From the sequence record NZ_CP014126.2: DNA of 64,000 nucleotides. One strand, written 5' to 3'. This DNA is from a plasmid. The notes under the pieces are model-generated. The model did no database searches. It was given only the letters and a program-made list of their open reading frames with translations, and had not been told where the DNA came from. Position numbers and translations under genes: made by a program. Below are positions 2,031 to 12,230 of this stretch, piece by piece. Numbering within the stretch: the stretch's first letter is position 1; every line of letters begins with the position of its first letter.

Positions 2031-2565
2031 CGGACATGGCCCCCTTCGGCTCCCCGGCGTTGCCGGGTCGTCAGTCCCACTCCGCTAACCGGCAAAGCCG
2101 GTAAGCTCCGCCGAACCCCTTCGGGTTTCGGACATAGGGCCTGATGGCTCAGGTCAAAGGCTGCAACCGGCTTTCGCCGGTGCTTCAACCGGGCGCGCTG
2201 CGCCCTTTAAAGGCGTCACGCCGTTCCGTCGTGACGACTGTGTTCATGCTCATCCCTGTGCTGTCACCCTTTTCCGGCTGGTACGGAGCGGAGGGCTTTT
2301 CGTAGCACAGTCATCCGTTCGCCCACTAGGGGTACGCTTCGCCGTTCCTCGCCCGTTCGCACTCGCCACAAAGACGGCTCGCTTGCGCTGCGGCCTGCGG
2401 TGACGCCCCGTGTTCGCCCGTCTGCCGGTGCTACTTATGCCCTTCGCCGCTCCATACCAACCGAAACAGGGTTTTAGTAACCATCAGAGGAAAACCAGCA
2501 TGAACACACAGAACGTCAAAACCGCCGCAACCAAAACCACCGAAACCTGGGCTGAAGGTCAAAAC
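2031..2565 (+). repeat. Leading-region structured repeat, copy A (Frpo/ssi-like ssDNA promoter candidate; includes RBS and first about 22 codons of the downstream gene)
   Basis: About 535 bp, near-identical to copies at 4963-5483 and 6956-7493 and to the first about 145 bp at 8865-9010. GC-rich with many local hairpins, e.g. aaccggc-NNN-gccggt and ccggcaaagccgg. Confidence 0.7.
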
Positions 2566-2907
2566 ACTAATTACTACCTGGGAGATCGTTTTACCAGCGC
2601 AGAGGGGTACGCCGAAGAAGTGCGGAATTACTGGCTGAATCGTGAGGCGGCGGCGGTAAAAGCGCCTGCGGAGATCGACGTACACCGCTTTCACGATGCG
2701 CTGGGGACACTCTATCCGCTGAACTGGGCATCCAGTGATAGCGGGAACTGTGAAACGTTCATGTTCGCAGAAATGTATTGCGGTGAGGTAACGGACATCT
2801 ACGCCCGTATCGGGGTGCGTTACTTCCGGCTGCGTAATTATAACCACATGACCCACGCTCAAATCCTAACGAGCGTTAAGGAGGCATTTGAACTGAACCA
2901 GAAATGA
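2500..2907 (+). CDS. hypothetical leading-region protein A (135 aa) with shared N-terminal leader MNTQNVKTAATKTTETW
   Basis: GAGGA RBS then ATG at 2500. The first 17-22 codons lie inside the repeat, and the rest is unique. Function unknown. Confidence 0.55.
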   Translation: MNTQNVKTAATKTTETWAEGQNTNYYLGDRFTSAEGYAEEVRNYWLNREAAAVKAPAEIDVHRFHDALGTLYPLNWASSDSGNCETFMFAEMYCGEVTDIYARIGVRYFRLRNYNHMTHAQILTSVKEAFELNQK

Positions 2908-2996
2908 AAAAAGCAGGCATAAGCCTGCTCATTCACCGCCGGAACCACGCGACCAACGAACGTTCCGGCGCTGTCAAACTTAACGGAGATAAACCC

Positions 2997-3143
2997 ATGC
3001 AATTCGACCCGCAAATCGTGTCACACGCACAGGCATTTGTAAATGCCCTTCGCAAAGGGAAGCGCGCGCGCGTCCCGGCTATTCGCCTGGAGCACTGGCA
3101 GCAGTTTATGACGCTGGTTTATGCCGGACTCGGCCTCGCGTGA
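2997..3143 (+). CDS. small conserved protein (48 aa), paralog of 7920-8057
   Basis: GGAGA RBS. MQFDPQIVSHAQAFVNALRKG aligns with MIFDMQIVAHAIAVVNAMRSG in module C. Same position after a leader-tagged gene. Confidence 0.45.
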   Translation: MQFDPQIVSHAQAFVNALRKGKRARVPAIRLEHWQQFMTLVYAGLGLA

Positions 3144-3153
3144 TGTGAAAAAG

Positions 3154-3173
3154 CCGCCCCTGATCGGGGCGGC
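3154..3173 (+). terminator. hairpin gccgcccc-tgat-cggggcggc
   Basis: Perfect 8-bp stem directly after the small ORF. Weak U-tract. Confidence 0.3.
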
Positions 3174-3191
3174 TGTAAAAGGAATCGATTC

Positions 3192-4010
3192 ATGTCACAG
3201 ATAAGTTTTGCGGAATTTTTTGACCAGGTACAGGACGCGGCACCGGTTGTTCAGCATCCTTTACCTGCGCTGCCGGTAAAACTGCCTGCGGTTTCCCCAC
3301 CCGTGTTAAGCCTTGCAGCGGCGAGAAGACAGTTTATCAGCGTCTTCCATGAGACAGCGTATAACCTGCGCCGCTGGGAGGTGTTCAGCGATTTCATTAT
3401 CCTGGCGGCCAGTGAACTGGATATCGCCCGGATCAGAACGCCGGAAAGCATTGAACGCTGCCGGAAAATCAGCGAACGCTACAGCGCCGCCGACATGCGC
3501 AATATGCACGAACTGTTCGCGCTGATGGTATGTGCGCTTCAGGCTCAGTTTCATGATTTTCTGGGCGCTGTTTTTATGGAGCTGGAGCTGGGCGACGATC
3601 GCCAGGGGCAATATTTTACGCCTTACAATGTCCAGTCAATGATGGCACGCCTGCTGATGCCCGGCGTGATTGATACCATCCGGCGGGAAGGGATGTTTAC
3701 CTTGTCAGAGCCGACCTGCGGAGCCGGGGGAATGGTTATCGCTTACGCAGAGTGCCTGATTGAAGCTGGGCTTAACCCTTCCGTTCAGATGTTCGTCAGT
3801 TGTATCGATATTGATCCTGTCGCGGCGGATATGGCGTTTATACAGCTTTCCCTGCTGGGCATTGCCGCTGAGGTTGTCACCGGTAATACACTGACGCTGG
3901 AGTTTAACCGGGTACGCTATACACCGGCTTACTATCTCAACGATTTCGAAGAACGCCTTGAAAGTCAGCGCCGGATCAAGGCTATGCTGGCTTTTATCAG
4001 GGCAATGTAG
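3192..4010 (+). CDS. N6-adenine DNA methyltransferase-like protein (AdoMet-binding motif I present, catalytic (D/N)PP(Y/F) motif not found)
   Basis: FTPYNVQSMMARLL....LSEPTCGAGGMVIAYAE....CIDIDPVAADMA resembles the HsdM/gamma-class MTase N-terminal motifs. The 272-aa protein ends before any NPPF/DPPY. Methylase-like genes are common in IncF leading regions. Confidence 0.55.
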   Translation: MSQISFAEFFDQVQDAAPVVQHPLPALPVKLPAVSPPVLSLAAARRQFISVFHETAYNLRRWEVFSDFIILAASELDIARIRTPESIERCRKISERYSAADMRNMHELFALMVCALQAQFHDFLGAVFMELELGDDRQGQYFTPYNVQSMMARLLMPGVIDTIRREGMFTLSEPTCGAGGMVIAYAECLIEAGLNPSVQMFVSCIDIDPVAADMAFIQLSLLGIAAEVVTGNTLTLEFNRVRYTPAYYLNDFEERLESQRRIKAMLAFIRAM

Positions 4011-4127
4011 GCCCGGACAAAACAGCAGGGAACAGAAAGGCAGGGAAGCCGCAATTACGGGTTTGTATGGGGTGCATGAGTCATGCAGAAATTGCACAAT
4101 ATACGGAATTTCGTATAATGAGGAGAT

Positions 4128-4461
4128 GATGCGTAAGAAAATCAGTTTTATTGACAGCAGTCTTGAGGATTTACGAGCTTTCCCGGAAGAGGCCCGCACC
4201 GCGTCAGGGTATCAGCTTGACCTGGTGCAGCAGGGACTGGAACCGGACGACTGGAAGCCATTTGCTTCAGTCGGTCAGGGAGCACGTGAAATACGCATCC
4301 GGGGTAATGACGGCATTTTCCGGGTCATGTATGTCGCCAAATTTGAAGAGGCCGTGTATGTGCTGCACTGCTTCCAGAAAAAGACACAGAAGACCAGCCA
4401 GAGTGACGTGGAACTTGCCCGGAATCGTTATCGCAGACTGGCAGAGGAGCGTAAAAAATGA
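4128..4461 (+). CDS. HigB/RelE-superfamily toxin (Gp49-like killer protein)
   Basis: 111 aa. Sits upstream of and overlaps (ATGA) an XRE-HTH gene, which is the HigBA arrangement. Typical size and charge. Confidence 0.55.
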
Positions 4462-4748
4462 ATATTCAGACTTTTGATAATGTGTGGGACGCGATCAGCG
4501 AAACGCCAGAGCAGGCGGAAAATATGAAACTTCGCGCCGAGTTAGTGAGCCGCCTGAATAGCTGGATTAAACGTAATGGCCTGAATCAGGCCACTGCCGC
4601 CGCTGCGCTGGGCGTTTCACAGCCAAGAGTGTCAGAGCTGGCAGGAGGCAAAATTAACTGCTTCTCGATTGATAAGCTGGTCAGCATGATGGCGCATGCC
4701 GGACTGCACATAACCAGTATTGAGATAAGCGAACCAGAGGCAGCTTGA
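4458..4748 (+). CDS. HigA-like XRE-family HTH antitoxin
   Basis: HTH segment NQATAAAALGVSQPRVSEL. 96 aa. Coupled to the upstream toxin. Confidence 0.6.
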   Translation: MNIQTFDNVWDAISETPEQAENMKLRAELVSRLNSWIKRNGLNQATAAAALGVSQPRVSELAGGKINCFSIDKLVSMMAHAGLHITSIEISEPEAA

Positions 4749-4805
4749 GCTGCCTTTTTGCCCCGCGCAAACTGCCAGGGCGGTAGCCCCTGCGGGGCAG
4801 GATAA

Positions 4806-4829
4806 ACCCGGTGCTGACGCACCGGCTAT
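4806..4829 (+). repeat. hairpin aaacccggtgc-tgac-gcaccggct, copy 1 of 3 (also at 6808-6831 and 8718-8741)
   Basis: Perfect 7-bp stem seen in three places. In copies 2 and 3 it is embedded in a longer 170-bp repeat. Confidence 0.6.
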
Positions 4830-4904
4830 ACCCTTTCACCTGACCGTCTTCATCCCTTCCCATCTGATGCTGATAGCTTGCCGTTTCTGATAACCGGGCT
4901 GATT

Positions 4905-4962
4905 CTGCCACTGCCACTGCCACTGCCACTGCCACTGCCACTGCCACTGCCACTGCCACTGC
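4905..4962 (+). repeat. Hexanucleotide microsatellite (CTGCCA/GCCACT) x about 9.7
   Basis: Perfect tandem hexamers seen directly. They abut the 5' edge of repeat copy B. Confidence 0.95.
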
Positions 4963-5483
4963 CGGGACATGGCCACCTTCGGCTCCCCGGCGTTGCCGGG
5001 TCGTCAGTCCCACTCCGCTAAGCGGCAAGCCGCTAAGCTCCGCCGAACCCCTCCGGGTTTCGGACATAGGGCCTGATGGCTGAGGTCAAAGGCTGCAACC
5101 GGCTATCGCCGGTGCTTCAACCGGGCGCGCTGCGCCCTTTAAAGGCGTCACGCCGTTCCGTCGTGACGACTGTGTTCATGCTCATCCCTGTGCTGTCACC
5201 CTTTTCCGGCTGGTACGGAGCGGAGGGCTTTTCGTAGCACAGTCATCCGTTCGCCCACTAGGGGTACGCTTCGCCGTTCCTCGCCCGTTCGCACTCGCCA
5301 CAAAGACGGCTCGCTTGCGCTGCGGCCTGCGGTGACGCCCCGTGTTCGCCCGTCTGCCGGTGCTACTTCTGCCCTTCGCCGCTCCATACCAACCGAAACA
5401 GGGTTTTAGTAACCATCAGAGGAGAACCAGCATGAACACACAGAACGTCAAAACCGCCGCAACCAAAACCACCGAAACCTGGG
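4963..5483 (+). repeat. Leading-region structured repeat, copy B
   Basis: Near-identical to copy A. Carries a compensatory hairpin variant (gcggc-aa-gccgc versus ccggc-aaa-gccgg). Confidence 0.7.
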
Positions 5484-6364
5484 TAAAACAAAACTTCGAC
5501 GTGCATCTGTCGATGCGCACAAATCGCCGGGTTAGTCTGGCGAAGCTGGAAGGCGATCTGATGAAGCACCGTGCCATGCAGAAACTGGGCGTTGATACTG
5601 AAGAGCTTTTCGATGACCTGCAGCTGGCAGTTGCGTGCATAACCACAATGATTGACAGGGGTGACATCGTCACACCGTCCGGATATGAGCTGGCGTCATC
5701 CGTGCGGTCTCTGGCTATCGAACTGTATCCTGAAGCGTGGGAGGCCGTGGATGGTCCTGATCTGCCGGAACTGGCATGGCTGCAGGCCGATGCTCCCGGA
5801 TGTCGTGAGGCTGAGCGTCAGTTATATATTGAGAATGCCCGTCCTTTTGGCGTCACCGTATACGGCTGCATGGAGTTCCATGAGGATGATCGAAATCTTG
5901 GCACGTACTGGCAGGATGGGGCAGTTTGCCTGGGCCGTGCTGATTCCATCACGGAGGCAATGGAGTTGCTGGTTCAGGCTGATCTGAACAATGACTGGCA
6001 ACTGTGCGACTACGATGCACTAAGCTTTCAGCCGAAGGTCGTCACGATCACCGACCTTGCACATCGAGTTGTGCTGCGCGGCAATGCCAGTAAGCTGGAA
6101 TGGACTGTACCTGAAACCGATCCGGCGGAACTTGAACGGATCGCTGAACAGAAAGCGGCACTGCTGAGCCAGGCTGCATTCGAGTCAGGCTGGGATAACT
6201 TTGAGACTGCCCGCATATTACGTAGCGAGGCTAACTTGTTGGAACTGGGCACCGTTCACGCCGTATGGCTGAACGATCCGAAAGTGGCAAAAGCCTTAAG
6301 AGAATACCGGCATCCGTCAAAACGCCTTGATGAAACAGAACTCATGGAAAATCTGGAGTTTTAG
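5432..6364 (+). CDS. hypothetical leading-region protein B (310 aa) with shared N-terminal leader
   Basis: Same RBS plus 17 codons as gene A, then a unique sequence. No family recognised. Confidence 0.55.
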   Translation: MNTQNVKTAATKTTETWVKQNFDVHLSMRTNRRVSLAKLEGDLMKHRAMQKLGVDTEELFDDLQLAVACITTMIDRGDIVTPSGYELASSVRSLAIELYPEAWEAVDGPDLPELAWLQADAPGCREAERQLYIENARPFGVTVYGCMEFHEDDRNLGTYWQDGAVCLGRADSITEAMELLVQADLNNDWQLCDYDALSFQPKVVTITDLAHRVVLRGNASKLEWTVPETDPAELERIAEQKAALLSQAAFESGWDNFETARILRSEANLLELGTVHAVWLNDPKVAKALREYRHPSKRLDETELMENLEF

Positions 6365-6434
6365 ACCGTTGCATGACTCGTGCTGCCTGGAATGCACTGA
6401 GCACCAGGTGGCGCGAAGGTAACAGGAGCTACCC

Positions 6435-6755
6435 ATGGTAAATAACACTGCACCCGATGTAAGACTGCCTGCGGCATTTTCGCAGCCTGAATCATTGAAA
6501 ATCGCTGACATCGGTTGTCTGGCCAGTCTCATCCAGCAGCAGGATAGCTACGATGGTGCAGCCATCGAATCTGCCGCAGCGGCCGTTAACATGTTCGCCA
6601 GCTGCACGGGACTGGACAGTGAAAATGACCTGGCTGCAACAGCGATTACCGATTTGCTCACAAACCTCATGCACCTATGTGAAGTGATTGATCTGCCGTT
6701 CTGTGAGTTTCTGAGTCGCGCCGGTGAACATTTCGAAAATGAAACCGGCAGCTGA
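6435..6755 (+). CDS. small strongly acidic protein (106 aa, about 17 D/E versus 3 K/R)
   Basis: Composition counted by eye. DNA-mimic-like charge. Follows gene B. Confidence 0.45.
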   Translation: MVNNTAPDVRLPAAFSQPESLKIADIGCLASLIQQQDSYDGAAIESAAAAVNMFASCTGLDSENDLAATAITDLLTNLMHLCEVIDLPFCEFLSRAGEHFENETGS

Positions 6756-6784
6756 ATCCGTGCCGTGCAGGGCACAAAGCCTGC

Positions 6785-6955
6785 AGGCCTTTCAGGCCAG
6801 GCAAAACCCGGTGCTGACGCACCGGCTCTCCCCCTCCGCGTTCTCTGTAGTCTGCCAGTGATGCCGGGTGTTTCACTGCTGTCCGGATGGTGTCGCCGGT
6901 TATGCAGGCTCAGATGCAATTGCTGCCTTTACTGACTAAACATCAACTTCAGGGG
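6785..6955 (+). repeat. 170-bp upstream repeat module, copy 1 (contains the ccggtgc-tgac-gcaccgg hairpin); identical copy at 8692-8864
   Basis: Identical sequence blocks seen directly. Each one directly precedes a copy of the structured repeat. Confidence 0.8.
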
Positions 6956-7493
6956 CCGGGACATGGCCACCTTCGGCTCCCCGGCGTTGCCGGGTCGTCA
7001 GTCCCACTCCGCTAACCGGCAAAGCCGGTAAGCTCCGCCGAACCCCTCCGGGTTTCGGACATAGGGCCTGATGGCTGAGGTCAAAGGCTGCAACCGGCTA
7101 TCGCCGGTGCTTCAACCGGGCGCGCTGCGCCCTTTAAGGGCGTCACGCCGTTCCGTCGTGACGACTGTGTTCATGCTCATCCCTGTGCTGTCACCCTTTT
7201 CCGGCTGGTACGGAGCGGAGGGCTTTTCGTAGCACAGTCATCCGTTCGCCCACTAGGGGTACGCTTCGCCGTTCCTCGCCCGTTCGCACTCGCCACAAAG
7301 ACGGCTCGCTTGCGCTGCGGCCTGCGGTGACGCCCCGTGTTCGCCCGTCTGCCGGTGCTACTTCTGCCCTTCGCCGCTCCATACCAACCGAAACAGGGTT
7401 TTAGTAACCATCAGAGGAGAACCAGCATGAACACACAGAACGTCAAAACCGCCGCAACCAAAACCACCGAAACCTGGGCTGAAGGGCAAAACA
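6956..7493 (+). repeat. Leading-region structured repeat, copy C
   Basis: Near-identical to copies A and B. Shares 5 extra codons (AEGQN) with A. Confidence 0.7.
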
Positions 7494-7816
7494 TCAACGG
7501 CTTGGATCCGGCACTGGCTCAGAGCCTGGATTATCTCAGGTTATTGAAGTCGGAGAGCATGACCGAGGAAGAACGTTTTGAACTTCTCACAGGCACTCTG
7601 ATGAATATGGCTGAAGAGGTTTGCAAGACGGTTACTGACTGGTCGCGCCCGCGCCCGATGATCCCGCTGGCATCATTTAAAGCGTGGATTGCAGCGGCAC
7701 ACATTGCGCACGGCTATCCAGACGGAATAGGCGATGCAGCATGGGGATACGCAAGCAGTGAACTGGCTTTGATTCTCAAAGCCGGATACGCCATGCATAA
7801 AGCGGATATTGCCTGA
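7427..7816 (+). CDS. hypothetical leading-region protein C (129 aa) with shared N-terminal leader
   Basis: Same start context. The unique body is acidic. Confidence 0.55.
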   Translation: MNTQNVKTAATKTTETWAEGQNINGLDPALAQSLDYLRLLKSESMTEEERFELLTGTLMNMAEEVCKTVTDWSRPRPMIPLASFKAWIAAAHIAHGYPDGIGDAAWGYASSELALILKAGYAMHKADIA

Positions 7817-7845
7817 TGAGAGAAGTGCAGATGTAAAAAAAGCAG

Positions 7846-7871
7846 AGTTTCCTCTGCTTTCTTCACCGCCG
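7846..7871 (+). terminator. hairpin aaagcagag-tttcct-ctctgcttt followed by a T-rich tail
   Basis: Inverted repeat plus ttctt directly after gene C. Confidence 0.4.
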
Positions 7872-7919
7872 GTATTTACGAGATACCGGCAACATCAAAA
7901 CCAGAATCTGGAGAGATAT

Positions 7920-8057
7920 ATGATTTTTGACATGCAAATCGTCGCACATGCCATCGCGGTTGTAAACGCAATGCGCAGCGGCCAGCTGGCACATTTAGCG
8001 GCAATGGTGTTTTCACAGTGGATGCAGGTAGCGCGTAAGGTGGAGAAGCAGCCATGA
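7920..8057 (+). CDS. small conserved protein (45 aa), paralog of 2997-3143
   Basis: GGAGAGA RBS. Alignment with the module A small ORF. Confidence 0.45.
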   Translation: MIFDMQIVAHAIAVVNAMRSGQLAHLAAMVFSQWMQVARKVEKQP

Positions 8058-8623
8058 GCCAGATTATTAAGCATCCACATTCCACAGCATTCACCAGCCT
8101 GATTCAGCAGGACGATATCACCAGAGTGATGGGCAAATACTGCCTTATTCGCCTGGATAATGGTGCAGAGTCCTTCTGGCACAATGGCCATTATGTCTGC
8201 GAGGCAAACGGTGCATACGGTGAAACGGGTGTGTCAGACATTGCCAGGCTGACCGCACGGGCGGGTGGTCATTCGTTACGGTGCATCGAGCTGCCGGTGC
8301 CTGATGGAGAGTGGTGCTGGGGTGATATAGCGGAAACACTGGCTCGCAGTGCCCTGAGTGAAACGGTACGGGCCTCCTGCATCGTGACGGGCTGCATAAC
8401 AGCGCAGGGCAGGGGGGTTCACTTCTGCAATCATCCGCTGCTGAGCGGCGACAACTCGAATCTGTGGTTTCCAATTGGCAACAATGAAGACTGGTTTGCG
8501 GCTGTGGAACGGATTCTGATCATGAACGGTTTAGCCGAAAATCTCACCAGTCTTTCACCGCTTCGTGACGGACCAGATTACATGGACTGGAAAGCGACCT
8601 ATAACAGGAAGGTCATAATCTAG
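8054..8623 (+). CDS. hypothetical protein (189 aa, Cys/His/Trp-rich)
   Basis: ATGA overlap with the small ORF. No family recognised. Confidence 0.4.
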   Translation: MSQIIKHPHSTAFTSLIQQDDITRVMGKYCLIRLDNGAESFWHNGHYVCEANGAYGETGVSDIARLTARAGGHSLRCIELPVPDGEWCWGDIAETLARSALSETVRASCIVTGCITAQGRGVHFCNHPLLSGDNSNLWFPIGNNEDWFAAVERILIMNGLAENLTSLSPLRDGPDYMDWKATYNRKVII

Positions 8624-8691
8624 GGAGCTAAGGCCGGTTTACACCGGCCATTCTGTCCATGAGCGGGGTGCTGAACCGCGAAAAAAACCAG

Positions 8692-8864
8692 CAGGCCTTA
8701 CAGGCCAGGCAAAACCCGGTGCTGACGCACCGGCTCTCCCCCTCCGCGTTCTCTGTAGTCTGCCAGTGATGCCGGGTGTTTCACTGCTGTCCGGATGGTG
8801 TCGCCGGTTATGCAGGCTCAGATGCAATTGCTGCCTTTACTGACTAAACATCAACTTCAGGGGC
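8692..8864 (+). repeat. 170-bp upstream repeat module, copy 2
   Basis: Identical to 6785-6955. Confidence 0.8.
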
Positions 8865-9010
8865 CGGGACATGGCCACCTTCGGCTCCCCGGCGTTGCCG
8901 GGTCGTCAGTCCCACTCCGCTAACCGGCAAAGCCGGTAAGCTCCGCCGAACCCCTTCGGGTTTCGGACATAGGGCCTGATGGCTGAGGTCAAGGGCTGCA
9001 ACCGGCTGTC
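8865..9010 (+). repeat. Leading-region structured repeat, copy D (5' about 145 bp only, then diverges into a different GC-rich leader)
   Basis: Identity with copies A-C ends after aaccggctgtcgccggtgc. Confidence 0.6.
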
Positions 9011-9314
9011 GCCGGTGCGTTCACTGGCCCCGAAATCGGGGCCGCTGAGGACCGGACCGGCAAAGGGCCGCCGTCCGGTGCTGTGTCCTGTTCATCTCCC
9101 GCGTTCTGTTTCGTTTCCTGAATTCCTCGCCGTGCAGAAATTTGGCACACGGGCGCCTTCGCACAAGGGACGCAAGCTAAACGGCTGCACCCGGTCCCTT
9201 CGGGCTGCGGCTTTGCCGTTTCCCTCTGCGCTCAGCCTGATCCCCGTGCGCCCGTTCTGCCCTCACGGCGAGGAACTCAGAGAAACATCGAATAAACCAC
9301 ACGGGAGACACAAC

Positions 9315-9893
9315 ATGTCAAAGCTGAACGTCAACACCCCGGCTTCAGAATCTAAAGAATCATCTTTTTTAACGGCAAAACCATCAGAAGAAATCAGCTA
9401 CGAAGCTATCCGTCGTGCATTACGTCGCAGTCTATTTTTCAAGGATCATCCGCAGTTCAATGTGAACACCGCGGCGCTGCGTAGCGATTTTGCTATGAAT
9501 CTGGAGTATCTGACGGCGGCAACCTTTACGCGCGAAGAGGCAGATTTTAATACGGGAAAATTCCGCTCAGGAATCGAGATGCTGCTGATTAACGCGCATG
9601 AAAAACTGCAGATCACGGTTTTTGTTTATGCTCCAGCGGCAGGCTCTGCACCGGAAATCTATGAAACCCGGATCGTGCATTCAGCTAATCCGATTGGTGA
9701 AGAAGAATATGCGGAAAATACCGAATACCAGACTACTAACGTTTACAAAGCCACAGGTGAGCTGAATGTTGCGGCGCTTGATCTGTTCTGGTCTGAGCAT
9801 GAAGGGCTGATTAAATATGCGAAGCAAAACCTGCCCCGGACTAACGAATACAGCCCATTCTGCCACTGGCAATTTTCGCACCTGAGAGGATGA
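9315..9893 (+). CDS. hypothetical acidic leading-region protein D (193 aa)
   Basis: GGGAGA RBS then ATG at 9315. The ORF-track start at 8979 lies in repeat and leader sequence. Glu-rich. Confidence 0.45.
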   Translation: MSKLNVNTPASESKESSFLTAKPSEEISYEAIRRALRRSLFFKDHPQFNVNTAALRSDFAMNLEYLTAATFTREEADFNTGKFRSGIEMLLINAHEKLQITVFVYAPAAGSAPEIYETRIVHSANPIGEEEYAENTEYQTTNVYKATGELNVAALDLFWSEHEGLIKYAKQNLPRTNEYSPFCHWQFSHLRG

Positions 9894-10014
9894 AAAAACA
9901 CTCCCCTGCAGCGTTCTGCAGGGAAATGAGATATCTGATATTCAGCAAATCGCTGGCCACTAGATAAGTTTTTTATTTGACAGCTGACACTATTTCTTTA
10001 TGAGGTTATTAATT

Positions 10015-10836
10015 ATGGTCCGTTTTTCTTCCCGCTATGCAGCCCCGACTGCTATCCGTAAAAACAGCCCGCTCAATAATGATGAGCTGATGCGCATTGT
10101 TCCGAGCGCATTTTCCGCCGAAAAGCATGATTCACGCTCTGAGCGTTATACCTATATTCCTACCATTACCCTGCTGGATAAACTGCGTGAAGAAGGGTTC
10201 GAACCTTTTTATGCCAGCCAGTCGCGCGTCCGCGATCCGGAAAGACGTGAGTTTACCAAACACATGATCCGCCTGCGCCGGGGAAATAATAACAGCGGCG
10301 AAGAGGTGCCGGAAATCGTATTACTGAACAGCCATGACGGCTCCAGCAGTTATAAAATGATCCCCGGTATTTTCCGGCAGGTCTGCACGAATGGCCTGGT
10401 GTGCTGGAAATCGTTTGGTGAAATCAGCGTGCCACACAAGGGGGATATTGTATCGCAGGTTATTGAAGGCGCTTATGAGGTGCTGGGCGTATTCGATAAG
10501 GTGGAAAATAATATCAGCATGATGAAATCCATTCAGGTTAACAGTGAAGAACGCCGCCTGCTGGGCCAGCTGGCGCTGGAATATAAATATGACGGCAAAG
10601 AGCCGCCGGTGTCAGCTGAGCGTATTATTAAGCCGCGTGCCTGGTATGACAAAGGCACCGACCTGTGGACCGCGTTTAATATCGTGCAGGAGAACCTGAT
10701 TAAGGGGGGGATGCCCGGCAGAACGGCAAAGGGAAAAAGAACTACGACACGACCGGTAACGGGCATCGACGGCGATATAAAGCTGAATCAGGCGCTGTGG
10801 AAGATGGCGGAGGAGTTCGCAAAACTCAAATCATGA
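10015..10836 (+). CDS. conserved plasmid leading-region protein (DUF932-like, family assignment from memory)
   Basis: 274 aa. Sits adjacent to the oriT-proximal transglycosylase, as in F-like plasmids. Confidence 0.4.
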   Translation: MVRFSSRYAAPTAIRKNSPLNNDELMRIVPSAFSAEKHDSRSERYTYIPTITLLDKLREEGFEPFYASQSRVRDPERREFTKHMIRLRRGNNNSGEEVPEIVLLNSHDGSSSYKMIPGIFRQVCTNGLVCWKSFGEISVPHKGDIVSQVIEGAYEVLGVFDKVENNISMMKSIQVNSEERRLLGQLALEYKYDGKEPPVSAERIIKPRAWYDKGTDLWTAFNIVQENLIKGGMPGRTAKGKRTTTRPVTGIDGDIKLNQALWKMAEEFAKLKS

Positions 10837-11529: not shown

Positions 11530-12230
11530 GATATAAAGAATTCAGCAGGATAGCTTTATTTATCAAGCCGCTCTCCGGGTGTAAGATTTCATCACACCCC
11601 ACGCAAGATTTCATCTTGCAGTTTTTTTATTTTAAAACATAGAGTTATCCTGTTTTTAATGGAGTTTTTTGTTTATATAAAATTAAAAGTGTGCTAATTA
11701 ACACACTTTACAGTGCCGTATTGTGTGTCATGATGGTGCCTTATTGTGTGTTGTTATGGTGCTGGATTGTGTGTTGTGACAGTGCCGCCTTGTGTGGTAA
11801 TTAGGCACTGCAAAAGGCACTGTAGGGTGTGCTAATTATCGCTAGTCATTAAAATCAATAACCTAGATATATGCTACGCCATGCTAGTGCCTGATTAACA
11901 CACATCAAAACAGCCCACAGTGCCGGATTGGCACACCTAAAATAGAGTAGTAATGCCTGCTCACCACATCTTAGTTACTCAGGTTTTATCATTTCTTATG
12001 GCCTGGAAAGCTATATAGTGCTGAATTAACACACATTTTTGATGCGTCGCCTGCTATATCAGATCTCATGAAAAAATAATTACCTAGTGCTGGATTGACA
12101 CACACTCATTCAAAGAGAAATAATTAAAACAGCTGAGCTACACCTTCTACATATTTCTCCAGAAAAGATGCTCTGGTTTCTTATTCGCTTAAATTTTTCA
12201 GAATGCGATCTTATTTTCGCCGCTACGGAG
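11530..12230 (-). other. oriT: oriT region; F-like nic motif on the bottom strand: 5'-gcaagatgaaatcttGCGTGGGGTGT|GATG-3', nic predicted between 11594 and 11593
   Basis: Matches F oriT GCGTGGGGTGT|GGTG, preceded by an inverted repeat as in F. Location between geneX and traM. Confidence 0.65.
11685..12110. promoter_or_regulatory. Array of at least 9 copies of GTGC(C/T)NNATTRNCACAC-like motifs (TraM/TraY/IHF-binding-like oriT repeats)
   Basis: Examples: gtgctaattaacacac, gtgccgtattgtgtgt, gtgctggattgtgtgttg, gtgctgaattaacacaca, gtgctggattgacacacac. AT-rich context. Confidence 0.5.

What the first reader, a model, noticed from the sequence alone, without database searches (positions are those of the whole stretch)
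2031..9320. Modular leading-region array: four copies of a 0.5-kb structured repeat, each fusing the same RBS and 17-codon leader to a different cargo gene
Copies at 2031-2565, 4963-5483 and 6956-7493 are near-identical over about 520-540 bp, and a partial copy lies at 8865-9010. Each copy ends inside a coding region, so proteins A, B and C (135, 310 and 129 aa) all begin MNTQNVKTAATKTTETW and then diverge completely. A and C share five further codons. The repeat is GC-rich and full of short hairpins. Between copies, substitutions are structure-preserving: ccggc-aaa-gccgg in A, C and D becomes gcggc-aa-gccgc in B, and aaccggc-[ttt/tat/tgt]-gccggt varies only in the loop. That pattern argues for selection on a folded nucleic acid rather than on the spurious 63-aa antisense ORFs inside it. 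All cargo genes point toward oriT, so the transferred bottom strand is their template. This is the geometry expected for Frpo/ssi-type single-strand promoters that fire in the recipient before complementary-strand synthesis. The shared N-terminal peptide could be a by-product of a promoter-plus-TIR module. It could also be a common degron or tag that makes these early-entry proteins transient. Either way, the element behaves like a promoter-plus-leader cassette that captures cargo, which I have not seen described.
Basis: partly seen in the sequence, partly recalled or inferred. Interest (0 to 1): 0.85.

Follow-up and report, generated by a model that had tools for sequence, protein, structure and literature searches.

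The report
Repeated single-strand promoter modules with shared leader
Four copies of a known kind of "single-stranded DNA promoter" (Frpo/ssi family) head four operons in the first-entering region of a Pantoea conjugative plasmid. Each copy also supplies the ribosome site and first ~17 codons of whatever gene follows it, a widespread feature I could not find described.

Summary
Window 2031-2565, 4963-5483 and 6956-7493 are 94-98% identical. The "partial" copy D is a complete but diverged paralog (8865-~9365).

The window is the leading region of a Pantoea agglomerans MOBF/MPF_F plasmid: psiB-psiA ... DUF932, SLT, oriT, traM.

A profile built from 26 related copies hits the validated F-plasmid promoters Frpo2 and Frpo1 (E 5e-17 and 1e-16). 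It also hits the low-certainty "Frpo*" candidates of Samuel et al. 2024 (E down to 3e-76). All 46 copies in 14 plasmids point toward oriT.

The bottom (transferred) strand folds into a long imperfect hairpin (z -6.2). Covariation supports it: 36 compensated pairs, 94.7% of cells paired.

Arrays of such promoters are already known. The in-frame leader seems unreported. MNTQNV(NV)KTAA... starts the first ORF in 35 of 42 copies outside F, on at least 18 unrelated cargo families, and a leader query hits about 1,100 plasmids.

The leader belongs to the element, not to the cargo. Third codon positions of its core are invariant, and the same DNA persists untranslated in F. This points to a nucleic-acid role rather than a peptide tag. 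Transcription from ssDNA was not tested here.

The parts
2031..2160 (-). Copy A, upstream accessory domain: nested small hairpins on the transferred strand. The same domain is at 4963-5092, 6956-7085 and 8865-8994.
   Evidence: Bottom-strand fold z -4.6. Helices 16-18 covary, for example CG:16 / UA:9. This part alone is found in about 4,600 PLSDB plasmids.
2238..2508 (-). Copy A, long imperfect hairpin on the transferred (bottom) strand. Its basal stem contains the SD region, the ATG and codons 2-4.
   Evidence: strand folding DNA: -128.7 kcal/mol, z -6.2. In helix 2, 8 of 12 pairs carry compensatory changes.
2299..2328 (-). Copy A, inferred promoter on the non-template arm. -35-like TAGTGG at 2323-2328, TG at 2306-2307, -10-like TACGAA at 2299-2304 at the edge of a conserved mismatch bubble. 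Inferred start about 2443.
   Evidence: The motif CCC-TTGnnn-N16-18-(TGn)TAC plus bubble is conserved in the 25-copy alignment. Coordinates. This is inference only; the canonical sigma-70 scan is negative.
2487..2565 (+). Copy A, Shine-Dalgarno GAGGA (2487-2491), ATG at 2500, and shared leader codons 1-17 (to 2550; to 2565 shared with C).
   Evidence: The leader is 82% A+C with 4% T. It contains a 15-nt internal tandem duplication at 2517-2547.
2500..2907 (+). Cargo ORF A (135 aa), first cistron of an operon. The operon continues with a small ORF (2904-3143), an N6-MTase (3192-4010) and a Gp49/HTH toxin-antitoxin pair (4129-4748).
   Evidence: No family hit for A.
4963..5483 (+). Copy B of the module. 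Hairpin about 5170-5440; inferred -35 at 5255-5260 and -10 at 5231-5236 on the minus strand; SD at 5419; ATG at 5432.
5432..6364 (+). Cargo ORF B (310 aa), followed by ORF 6435-6755.
   Evidence: Homologs occur only in Pantoea and all carry the leader.
6956..7493 (+). Copy C of the module. Hairpin about 7165-7435; inferred -35 at 7250-7255 and -10 at 7226-7231 on the minus strand; SD at 7414; ATG at 7427.
7427..7816 (+). Cargo ORF C (129 aa), followed by ORFs 7920-8057 and 8054-8623.
   Evidence: The C cargo family exists both with and without the leader.
8865..9365 (+). Copy D, a full-length diverged paralog. Its first ~155 nt are near-identical to C and the rest is a different subfamily, as in Mixta and Erwinia plasmids. 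Hairpin about 9079-9330; inferred -35 TTGTGC at 9161-9166 and -10 CAAATT at 9139-9144 on the minus strand; SD GGGAGA at 9303; ATG at 9315.
   Evidence: nhmmer E 3e-54. Bottom-strand fold z -6.2..
9315..9893 (+). Cargo ORF D (192 aa, leader variant MSKLNVNTPASES), followed by a DUF932 gene (10000-10836).
   Evidence: The ortholog in Mixta is annotated at 192 aa. The RefSeq homolog is annotated from an upstream ATG as 304 aa.
11589..11600 (-). nic-like sequence GGGGTGTGATGA on the bottom strand, between the SLT gene and traM. It fixes the bottom strand as the transferred strand. The match alone is weak evidence.
   Evidence: 2 mismatches to F, and a chance-level count over the whole window. Position and strand are as in F. 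Synteny with F. 23-bp repeats at 11713-11796.

Best explanation
The four repeats are members of the Frpo/ssi family of single-stranded-DNA promoters. They sit in the leading region of an F-like (MOBF/MPF_F) Pantoea agglomerans plasmid, and each heads one operon that points toward oriT.

Proposed mechanism (inferred unless marked otherwise):
1. During conjugation the bottom strand enters the recipient 5'-first from oriT, so the modules arrive in the order D, C, B, A.
2. Before the complementary strand is made, each module folds into a ~270-nt imperfect hairpin.
3. The arm distal to the gene acts as the non-template strand. It carries a degenerate -35 (TTGnnn in the family, TAGTGG in A-C) and a TG-extended -10-like TACGAA next to a conserved mismatch bubble.
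4. Host sigma-70 RNA polymerase starts on the other arm about 55 nt before the ATG and reads out of the hairpin into the cargo.
5. Conversion to duplex DNA destroys the bubble and switches the promoter off.

What the module contains downstream of the promoter (shown): the basal stem of the hairpin holds the Shine-Dalgarno sequence, the ATG and codons 2-4. The conserved element runs on for about 13-18 more codons. Whatever gene follows is therefore expressed as an in-frame fusion to a common, hydrophilic, A/C-rich leader.

Why the copies are so alike (inferred from shown identities): copies within one plasmid are kept near-identical by recombination or gene conversion. The same process shuffles cargos between positions.

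Role of the leader DNA (inferred): it most likely works at the nucleic-acid level, as part of the element's basal architecture and as a U-poor, structure-free ribosome landing pad. The peptide is probably not the functional part.

Shown here: homology, strand, position, hairpin, covariation, modular leader, nucleotide-level conservation. Inferred: ssDNA transcription, promoter hexamers, start site, and the role of the leader.
For: Context. The window has near-full-length matches to Pantoea MOBF/MPF_F plasmids, in the order ArdA-ParB-psiB-psiA-[A..D]-DUF932-SLT(-)-traM, collinear with F. A nic-like site lies on the minus strand.

Homology. A profile of 26 full-length copies hits F Frpo2 (E 5.1e-17) and Frpo1 (E 1.4e-16). 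It also hits published T-strand sequences:
- Samuel 2024 Frpo*5: 3e-76
- Frpo*7: 2.5e-54
- Frpo*4: 1.6e-44
- F ssiD: 3e-18

Orientation and distribution. All 46 copies in 14 plasmids are on the gene/oriT-directed strand. In complete E. coli genomes, 259 of 261 places are on plasmids.

Structure.
- Bottom-strand hairpin z is -6.2 for A and for D. F Frpo1 gives -5.9.
- 94.7% of cells are paired, against 82% in shuffles and 35-48% in slid controls.
- 36 compensated pairs, against 24 in shuffles and 12-18 in slid controls.
- G.T against A.C deviations are 79 to 17. alifold gives -46.5 for the T strand and -31.7 for the plus strand.

Leader belongs to the element.
- 35 of the 42 elements outside F that reach the 3' end start a leader ORF (37 of 44 by the script's raw count, which also scores an F Frpo2 artefact).
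- 36 leader ORFs fall into 18 unrelated cargo clusters.
- A consensus-leader tblastn at E<=10 matches 1,104 plasmids; this is a permissive cut-off, so treat it as an upper estimate.
- KlcA-like, N6-MTase, YgeA and C-family cargos all exist with and without the leader.
- A leaderless C homolog sits behind an ordinary promoter with no Frpo-like element.

Nucleotide-level constraint on the leader.
- Codon-position identity is 0.74/0.81/0.70. The core AAC GTC AAx ACC is 96-100% conserved at the third positions of codons 5, 6 and 8.
- The same core persists without an ATG, and with stops after it, upstream of ssb or DUF905 in F and four other plasmids.

Accessibility. With the natural leader the translation-initiation region of A-C costs 3.5-7.1 kcal/mol to open. 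With the leader deleted or swapped it costs 8-15 kcal/mol.

Concerted evolution. Mean identity is 83% within plasmids and 62% between plasmids.

Literature. Frpo1/Frpo2 are required for early expression (PMC9849209). Six ssDNA promoters with mapped starts are reported in pESBL (PMC12672017).
Against: - No transcription data exist for this plasmid.
- No canonical sigma-70 site is found on either strand of copy A.
- The -35-like hexamer of A-C (TAGTGG) is poor.
- Samuel et al. rated this subfamily as low-certainty.
- Direct pairwise similarity to F Frpo is weak (63%). Homology rests on a profile.
- Covariation alone cannot separate a DNA hairpin from an RNA hairpin. The G.T/A.C asymmetry was counted on a structure predicted from the T-strand orientation, which biases it.
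- The accessibility result depends on an inferred start site and fails for copy D (12.1 against 7.3 kcal/mol).
- The invariant core TTGACGTT on the T strand lies outside the covarying stem in this subfamily, and its role is unexplained.
Confidence: 0.75

Rival explanations
1. The shared N-terminal peptide is itself the functional unit. It would be a common tag (degron, targeting or interaction motif) that makes all first-cistron proteins behave alike after entry.
For: - The ORF is kept open through the leader in 35 of 42 non-F copies.
- N5, V/I6 and T8 are nearly invariant at the protein level.
- The Ala codons at positions 9-10 vary synonymously (GCC/GCT/GCA/GCG).
Against: - Third positions of the core codons 5, 6 and 8 are 96-100% invariant, including non-preferred GTC.
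- Positions 2-4 and 11-17 change non-synonymously and freely.
- The same DNA is conserved untranslated in F and four other plasmids.
- Cargo families function without the leader.
Confidence: 0.12
2. The conserved structure acts in the mRNA, not in ssDNA. It would be a structured 5' UTR or leader (attenuator, thermometer, or target of a common sRNA or protein) transcribed from an ordinary promoter at the 5' end of the repeat.
For: - Covariation is compatible with RNA pairing.
- The SD and ATG lie inside the basal stem, which in an RNA would occlude translation and could be regulatory.
- A shared leader would suit a common trans-acting regulator.
Against: - No sigma-70-like site is found anywhere in 1900-2700 on the plus strand.
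- G.T wobbles (A.C mismatches in the RNA) outnumber A.C by 79 to 17, and the plus-strand consensus folds worse.
- The element is homologous to elements shown to work as ssDNA promoters (PMC9849209).
- No Rfam family matches.
Confidence: 0.08
3. The repeats are mainly priming signals (ssi) for complementary-strand synthesis, or recombination hot-spots or relics of a mobile element. Their position before genes would be incidental.
For: - Frpo was discovered as an ssi (ssiD), and its RNA primes DNA synthesis (reviewed in PMC7690428; 10.64898/2026.01.09.698686).
- Recombination between copies is evident.
Against: - Every copy is immediately followed by an SD, an ATG and an ORF in the same orientation.
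- No transposase, terminal inverted repeats or intron features are present.
- The element is almost absent from chromosomes.
- Priming and promoter roles are not exclusive in this family.
Confidence: 0.05

Closest known systems
F plasmid Frpo1/Frpo2 (ssiD; 'class 1' or ssp1 ssDNA promoters) and ColIb-P9 ssi1-3
   Same: - Leading-region location and orientation toward oriT.
- A ~270-330-nt imperfect hairpin on the transferred strand.
- Several near-identical copies per plasmid, each heading a different operon.
- Significant profile homology (E about 1e-16 to 1e-18).
- A shared mid-stem bubble and the shared core AACGTCAAAACCGC near the 3' end.
   Different: - In F the leader-homologous segment has no ATG and is 5' UTR. 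ssb and ygeA use their own SD and ATG 40-50 nt further on.
- The F apex (AAAAAGTTTT type) is replaced in window copies A-C by a different apex sequence.
- The window copies carry an extra ~130-nt upstream structured domain that was not detected in F.
- ColIb Frpo1 itself was not hit by the profile.
'Frpo*' low-certainty candidates of Samuel et al. 2024 (Salmonella AAEPNF010000010.1 Frpo*5-7; insect-gut metagenome Frpo*2 and *4)
   Same: Same family by sequence (E 3e-76 to 8e-18). The published segments end exactly at the same SD/ATG position.
   Different: Those authors extracted only the intergenic part. The conserved in-frame leader, the covariation and the cargo modularity were therefore not described. 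No function was tested for these candidates.
Class 2 (ardA/klcA, ssp2/'Frpo3') and class 3 (M.EcoGIX) ssDNA promoters of pESBL and F (Wen et al. 2025; Fraikin et al. 2026)
   Same: Same logic: a long T-strand hairpin, with the promoter on the arm distal to the gene reading toward the base. By eye, the apex of window copies A-C resembles Frpo*1, which I take to be this type (GCGAACGGGCGAGGAACGGCG against Frpo*1 GCGAACGGGTGAGGAGACGGCG).
   Different: No significant profile match to Frpo'4 or Frpo*1. Roadblock activity and mapped start sites are known only for the published elements.
Integron attC/Pc cassette systems and synthetic bicistronic or 'standardised TIR' designs (analogy only)
   Same: One expression module is reused in front of interchangeable cargo. 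Folding of a single strand is the functional form, as with attC.
   Different: No integrase and no site-specific recombination sites. Cargo exchange here appears to use homologous recombination between repeated promoter modules.

Membership tests
Frpo/ssi single-stranded DNA promoters (class 1 sensu Wen et al. 2025) | Sequence homology to F Frpo (ssiD) / ColIb ssi | tested here: met
   The profile of 26 copies hits F Frpo2 at E 5.1e-17, Frpo1 at 1.4e-16 and ssiD at 3e-18. Pairwise similarity alone is weak, and ColIb Frpo1 was not hit.
Frpo/ssi single-stranded DNA promoters (class 1 sensu Wen et al. 2025) | Located in the leading region, upstream of genes whose template is the transferred strand | tested here: met
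   Synteny with F and Pantoea MOBF plasmids. nic-like site on the minus strand. 46 of 46 copies are oriented toward oriT.
Frpo/ssi single-stranded DNA promoters (class 1 sensu Wen et al. 2025) | Transferred strand folds into a long, stable, imperfect stem-loop | tested here: met
   z -6.2 for A and D, against -5.9 for F Frpo1. 36 compensated pairs and 94.7% pairing. T-strand bias of wobble pairs.
Frpo/ssi single-stranded DNA promoters (class 1 sensu Wen et al. 2025) | Stem reconstitutes -35 and -10 boxes, with mismatches around -10 | tested here: inconclusive
   The alignment shows a conserved TTGnnn-N16-18-(TGn)TAC next to a conserved bubble. In A-C the -35 is TAGTGG and the -10 is TACGAA. 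The stringent scan finds nothing.
Frpo/ssi single-stranded DNA promoters (class 1 sensu Wen et al. 2025) | Sigma-70 RNA polymerase transcribes the ssDNA form, the dsDNA form is inactive, and there is zygotic induction in transconjugants | not testable with these tools
   Needs in vitro transcription, or 5'-RACE/RNA-seq after mating.
Frpo/ssi single-stranded DNA promoters (class 1 sensu Wen et al. 2025) | RNA made from the element primes complementary-strand synthesis (ssi activity) | not testable with these tools
   Needs an M13-type ssi assay or conversion kinetics.
'Frpo*' candidate group of Samuel et al. 2024 | Sequence similarity to the listed Frpo*2, 4, 5, 6 and 7 sequences | tested here: met
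   nhmmer E 3.2e-76 (Frpo*5), 2.5e-54 (*7), 1.6e-44 (*4) and 8.2e-18 (*2), all in T-strand orientation. *6 was not included in the test.
Insertion sequence / group II intron / other mobile repeat | Own transposase or RT, terminal repeats, scattered genomic distribution in both orientations | tested here: not met
   No such ORFs. One orientation only. 259 of 261 E. coli places are plasmid-borne. No Rfam hit.

The most novel reading that the evidence does not exclude
The conserved leader segment is a dedicated, previously unrecognised cis-module of ssDNA promoters. It comprises the SD, the ATG and about 17 A/C-rich codons with the invariant core AACGTCAAAACC. Its proposed job is to make the first cistron translatable straight off a transcript made on a single-stranded template. 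It could do this by letting the re-forming DNA hairpin strip the 5' end of the RNA from the template and by offering a structure-free ribosome landing pad. Because all operons share it, it may also serve as a common operator for coordinated shut-off. This would explain why more than 1,000 plasmids fuse it to unrelated cargos. It would also give a sequence tag for finding ssDNA-promoter-driven genes.
Probability: 0.3. Interest if true: 0.7.

Novelty: new variant of a known kind. Interest (0 to 1): 0.5.

Why it matters
Leading-region ssDNA promoters decide which anti-defence and establishment genes a plasmid expresses in the first minutes after entry. That field moved from one in vitro paper (1997) to in vivo proof only in 2023-2026.

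This window adds three things:
- The poorly supported 'Frpo*' group is a real, covarying, strand-specific homolog of Frpo.
- These modules evolve in concert within a plasmid and swap apex, flank and cargo.
- In most copies the module reaches into the coding region and donates a conserved leader to at least 18 unrelated first-cistron proteins. This was probably missed because earlier surveys cut candidates at the annotated start codon.

If the leader is needed for expression from ssDNA, it becomes a simple marker for early-expressed (likely anti-defence) genes. It also becomes a design rule for engineered leading-region payloads, and a caution for clustering and annotation. Unrelated proteins share an N-terminus, and start codons inside the GC-rich repeat are mis-called, as with the 304-aa annotation of cargo D.

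Tried and rejected
1. TTGACG (the complement of leader codons 5-7) as the -35 of the ssDNA promoter. Rejected: 16-18 nt further on lies GGTTTT/GGTTCT, not a -10. With the NV duplication the spacing to CAT changes. An RNA started there would miss the ATG.
2. An F-like extension of the basal stem through the leader. It is present in F and partly in copy A. It is not conserved in the family, where the partner segment forms its own covarying local hairpin (helix 9).
3. A canonical sigma-70 scan of 1900-2700 on both strands found nothing.
4. Rfam at E<=1 gave only sub-threshold hits: AS-pc01, DUF3085 RNA and CC3552.
5. A leader-profile search of the 5.8-billion-protein set. The second returned only proteins of 30-77 aa, so it could not give a large-scale cargo/Pfam table. 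tblastn on PLSDB and 14 fetched loci were used instead.
6. Word-indexed homolog searches for cargos B and C found only close Pantoea relatives. The exhaustive HMMER search was needed to find leaderless C homologs.
7. Pfam, NCBIfam and PHROGs gave no function for cargos A-D.
8. Looking up the published -35/-10 and start sites of Frpo. Masai & Arai 1997, Bates 1999, Nasim 2004 and Bikard 2010 are not held, and Wen 2025 has no text supplement. The promoter placement is therefore my own inference.
9. An IS, intron or mobile-repeat explanation was rejected (see the membership test).
10. No paper in the searchable library mentions the leader peptide or a shared N-terminus downstream of Frpo.

Full report
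**1. What is in the sequence**

The repeat finder and MAFFT confirm three near-identical ~530-bp direct repeats: A 2031-2565, B 4963-5483 and C 6956-7493. They are 94-96% identical in a gapped family alignment.

Each repeat ends inside an ORF. The ORFs start at 2500, 5432 and 7427, behind the same Shine-Dalgarno sequence. All three begin MNTQNVKTAATKTTETW. A and C also share AEGQN.

The fourth copy needs a correction. Only 8865-~9020 is near-identical to C, plus 200 nt further upstream (8668-8865 = 6760-6956, 96%). A family profile nevertheless aligns D over its whole length (8867-9362, E 3e-54). D has its own long hairpin. Its ORF at 9315 starts with a leader variant, MSKLNVNTPASESKESS. D is therefore a full-length, diverged and partly recombinant paralog.

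**2. Context and strand**

The first 12 kb match Pantoea agglomerans plasmids typed MOBF/MPF_F at 95-96% identity.

The gene order in the closest homolog is ArdA, DUF905, ParB, psiB, psiA, [A operon], [B], [C], [D], DUF932, lytic transglycosylase (reverse), traM. The window itself starts within ParB. This order is collinear with the F leading region.

A nic-like GGGGTGTGATGA lies on the minus strand at 11589-11600, between the transglycosylase gene and traM. By itself this match is weak, but its place and strand are as in F. It is next to 23-bp direct repeats.

The bottom strand is therefore the transferred strand and the template of all these genes. The modules enter in the order D, C, B, A.

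**3. Relation to known elements**

The literature already describes this kind of array:
- F has Frpo1 and Frpo2, 92% identical and 5 kb apart. Each is required for early expression of its downstream genes (PMC9849209).
- ColIb-P9/pESBL has ssi1-3 plus two further classes, with mapped starts (PMC12672017).
- Samuel et al. counted 13,089 Frpo homologs in 6,006 elements (PMC11541004).

I fetched 13 other plasmids carrying related repeats. They come from Klebsiella, Pantoea, Serratia, E. coli, Arsenophonus, Mixta, Phytobacter, Citrobacter, Erwinia and Kosakonia, plus F.

An nhmmer profile of 26 full-length copies hits F Frpo2 (E 5.1e-17) and Frpo1 (E 1.4e-16). Searched against the T-strand sequences in Samuel's Supplementary Table 2, it gives:

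| Published sequence | E-value |
|---|---|
| Frpo*5 | 3.2e-76 |
| Frpo*7 | 2.5e-54 |
| Frpo*4 | 1.6e-44 |
| Frpo*2 | 8.2e-18 |
| F ssiD | 3e-18 |
| Serratia Frpo'1 | 4e-14 |

ColIb Frpo1, Frpo'4 and Frpo*1 were not hit.

The window repeats thus belong to the group those authors called low-certainty 'Frpo*', and that group is homologous to bona fide Frpo.

All 46 profile hits in the 14 plasmids lie on the oriT-directed strand. In 5,426 complete E. coli genomes, 259 of 261 matching places are on plasmids. This rules out an IS-like or intron-like repeat.

**4. Structure**

Folded as DNA, the bottom strand of A gives a ~270-nt imperfect hairpin (window 2238-2508) with z -6.2. D gives z -6.2 and F Frpo1 gives z -5.9. 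The upstream 200 nt form a string of small hairpins (z -4.6).

I aligned 25 copies in T-strand orientation. RNAalifold predicts 71 pairs, 36 of them with compensatory changes. The count of structure pairs gives:

| Measure | Observed | Column shuffles | Register slid |
|---|---|---|---|
| Cells paired | 94.7% | 82% | 35-48% |
| Compensated pairs | 36 | 24 | 12-18 |
| Covariation score | 0.389 | 0.173 | 0.065-0.107 |

Helix 2 pairs the start codon and codons 2-4 with the upstream arm. Eight of its 12 pairs carry compensatory changes.

Among pairs whose commonest state is Watson-Crick, G.T deviations outnumber A.C by 79 to 17. The T-strand consensus folds better than the plus strand (-46.5 against -31.7 kcal/mol). 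This favours folding of the transferred DNA strand over folding of the mRNA. One caveat: the pair set was derived from the T-strand orientation.

The hairpin apex is mosaic. A-C carry one type, some plasmids carry the F-like AAAAAGTTTT apex, and D, Mixta and Erwinia carry a third type.

**5. Where the promoter probably is (inference)**

No canonical sigma-70 site exists on either strand of 1900-2700.

Nearly all family members do share a motif on the arm distal to the gene: CCC-TTGnnn, then 16-18 nt, then (TGn)TAC[GA]A[AC]. A conserved internal loop and a GCCC/GGGC duplex follow immediately. The candidate Frpo'4, which I take to be of the class-2 type (my reading of its sequence), shows clearer hexamers at the equivalent place (TTGCAT ... 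TAAGAT).

In copy A this gives TAGTGG (2323-2328, minus strand) and TG-n-TACGAA (2299-2307, minus strand). The implied start on the opposite arm is near 2443, giving a ~56-nt 5' UTR. The complementary arm would not be transcribed, so the SD would be free in the RNA.

I could not check this against the published start sites. The relevant papers and figures are not held.

**6. The leader**

Across the 14 plasmids, 44 elements extend to the 3' end of the model. Two of them are F Frpo1 and Frpo2.

- 35 of the other 42 start an ORF with M-x-x-x-N-V/I-(N-V)-K-T-A-A-x-E-S-x-E.... The script's raw count is 37 of 44. That count also scores an F Frpo2 artefact (MMGAEN...) and a 44-aa ORF in the Erwinia plasmid.
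- The exceptions are mainly F-like copies in front of ssb or DUF905.
- The 36 leader ORFs I compiled (including F YgeA, whose own N-terminus is leader-like) fall into 18 unrelated cargo clusters.
- Named cargos include ParB-like, DUF3560, DUF4942, N6-methylase, KlcA/ArdB-like antirestriction and YgeA-like proteins.
- tblastn with a consensus leader at E<=10 finds 1,104 PLSDB plasmids, 834 of them conjugative. Many of these hits are individually non-significant, so this is an upper estimate.
- A profile search finds 153 further clusters of small proteins at E<=1, 114 of them at E<=0.001.

The leader belongs to the element and not to the cargo:
- The C cargo family has members with the leader and members starting MKRSD..., MIFST..., MISAT....
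- One leaderless member sits behind an ordinary TTGTAT-17-TATTAT promoter, with no Frpo-like sequence upstream.
- KlcA-like, methylase and YgeA homologs likewise occur with and without it.

Conservation acts at the nucleotide level:
- Identity by codon position is 0.74/0.81/0.70.
- In the core AAC GTC AAx ACC, the third positions of codons 5, 6 and 8 are 96-100% invariant.
- The same core...CGCAAAACGTCAAAACCGCGGC..., is retained without an ATG and followed by stops or frameshifts. This is seen upstream of ssb or DUF905 in F and in Klebsiella, Pantoea and E. coli plasmids.

The sense strand of the UTR and leader is A/C-rich and U-poor. The leader is 72% A+C in the family and 82% in A-C, against 50% in cargo.

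With the inferred start, the SD-to-+15 region of A, B and C costs 4.2, 7.1 and 3.5 kcal/mol to open. Without the leader the cost is 8-15 kcal/mol. With the leader swapped for cargo codons it is 10.5-12.6 kcal/mol, and none of 30 swaps was as low as the natural sequence. Copy D does not follow this pattern.

**7. Evolution**

Copies within a plasmid average 83% identity, typically 92-97%. Copies in different plasmids average 62%.

The following all point to frequent homologous recombination or gene conversion between modules:
- mosaic apices;
- the C/D hybrid 5' part;
- different cargo orders in related Pantoea plasmids;
- a database protein (P0153) with a B-like N-terminus, an internal leader remnant and a C-type C-terminus.

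Recombination both homogenises the promoter-plus-leader segment and moves cargos.

**8. Verdict**

The Frpo/ssi interpretation is well supported computationally but not experimentally.

The repeat array itself is a known kind of system.

I did not find the widespread translated leader described. Earlier surveys took only intergenic DNA.

The leader's invariant core (T-strand TTGACGTT) remains unexplained. My preferred reading is a nucleic-acid role: basal architecture of the element plus a structure-free translation-initiation pad. A peptide tag is a minority alternative.

Noticed in passing
window 2031-2160 (also 4963-5092, 6956-7085, 8865-8994): The first ~130 nt of the repeat form a separate structured domain. 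It consists of covarying nested hairpins closed by TTCGGC/GCCGAA. This domain alone occurs in about 4,600 PLSDB plasmids, mostly Klebsiella IncF, and in pOXA-48 upstream of a small ORF plus DUF4942. It was not detected in F Frpo. Its function is unknown.
   Followed up: partly
window 4905-4963: A perfect (CTGCCA) x 9.8 hexanucleotide array directly abuts the 5' end of repeat B. It is absent from A, C and D.
   Followed up: no
window 6760-6956 and 8668-8865; also 4785-4833: The ~200 nt upstream of repeats C and D are 96% identical. They contain a two-hairpin module (AGGCCTTTCAGGCC...CCGGTGCTGACGCACCGG) that also precedes B. Rfam gives a sub-threshold DUF3085-RNA hit at 6746-6817 (27.7 against 40.6 bits). 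This could be an operon terminator or another ssDNA structure.
   Followed up: partly
window 8979-9893: An ORF of 304 aa runs from an ATG inside repeat D through the whole hairpin into cargo D. The RefSeq homolog is annotated this way. The SD, the leader and the 192-aa Mixta ortholog all indicate 9315 as the real start. The 53-aa (plus strand) and 63-aa (minus strand) ORFs inside A-C are likewise by-products of the GC-rich repeat.
   Followed up: partly
window 2517-2547 (and 5449-5479, 7444-7474): The leader of A-C contains a 15-nt tandem duplication (CAAAACCGCCGCAAC / CAAAACCACCGAAAC, giving KTAAT/KTTET). Other plasmids carry a 6-nt AACGTC duplication (NVNV). The leader grows by small in-frame duplications.
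   Followed up: no
L002 (F plasmid) 6560-6660 and 11960-12070: In F Frpo2 the untranslated leader remnant (..QNVKTAAPETQKMMGAEN..) is in frame with the ssb start, with no stop between. F YgeA itself starts MSTRNIHVNTAS, a shortened leader. F Frpo1-ygeA therefore carries two leader-derived segments in tandem.
   Followed up: partly
protein P0153: A 258-aa database protein joins a leader plus B-like N-terminus to an internal leader remnant (..MKTAAHESADTR..) and a C-type cargo. It looks like a product of recombination between two modules.
   Followed up: no
window 11589-11600 and 11713-11796: A nic-like GGGGTGTGATGA lies on the minus strand. 23-bp x 3.7 direct repeats (GTGCCGTATTGTGTGTCATGATG) lie between the transglycosylase gene and traM. 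Together these are the probable oriT and TraM-binding region.
   Followed up: partly
window 4129-4748: A Gp49-family (HigB/RelE-like) toxin and an HTH_37 antitoxin pair sit as the last genes of the A operon, between two recombinogenic repeats. This recalls the suggestion that flmAB in F protects the segment between Frpo1 and Frpo2 from deletion (PMC9849209).
   Followed up: no
window 2908-3002 (minus strand): A sub-threshold Rfam hit to AS-pc01 (antisense RNA of IncF plasmid pHK01; 30.3 against 79 bits) overlaps the small ORF after cargo A.
   Followed up: no
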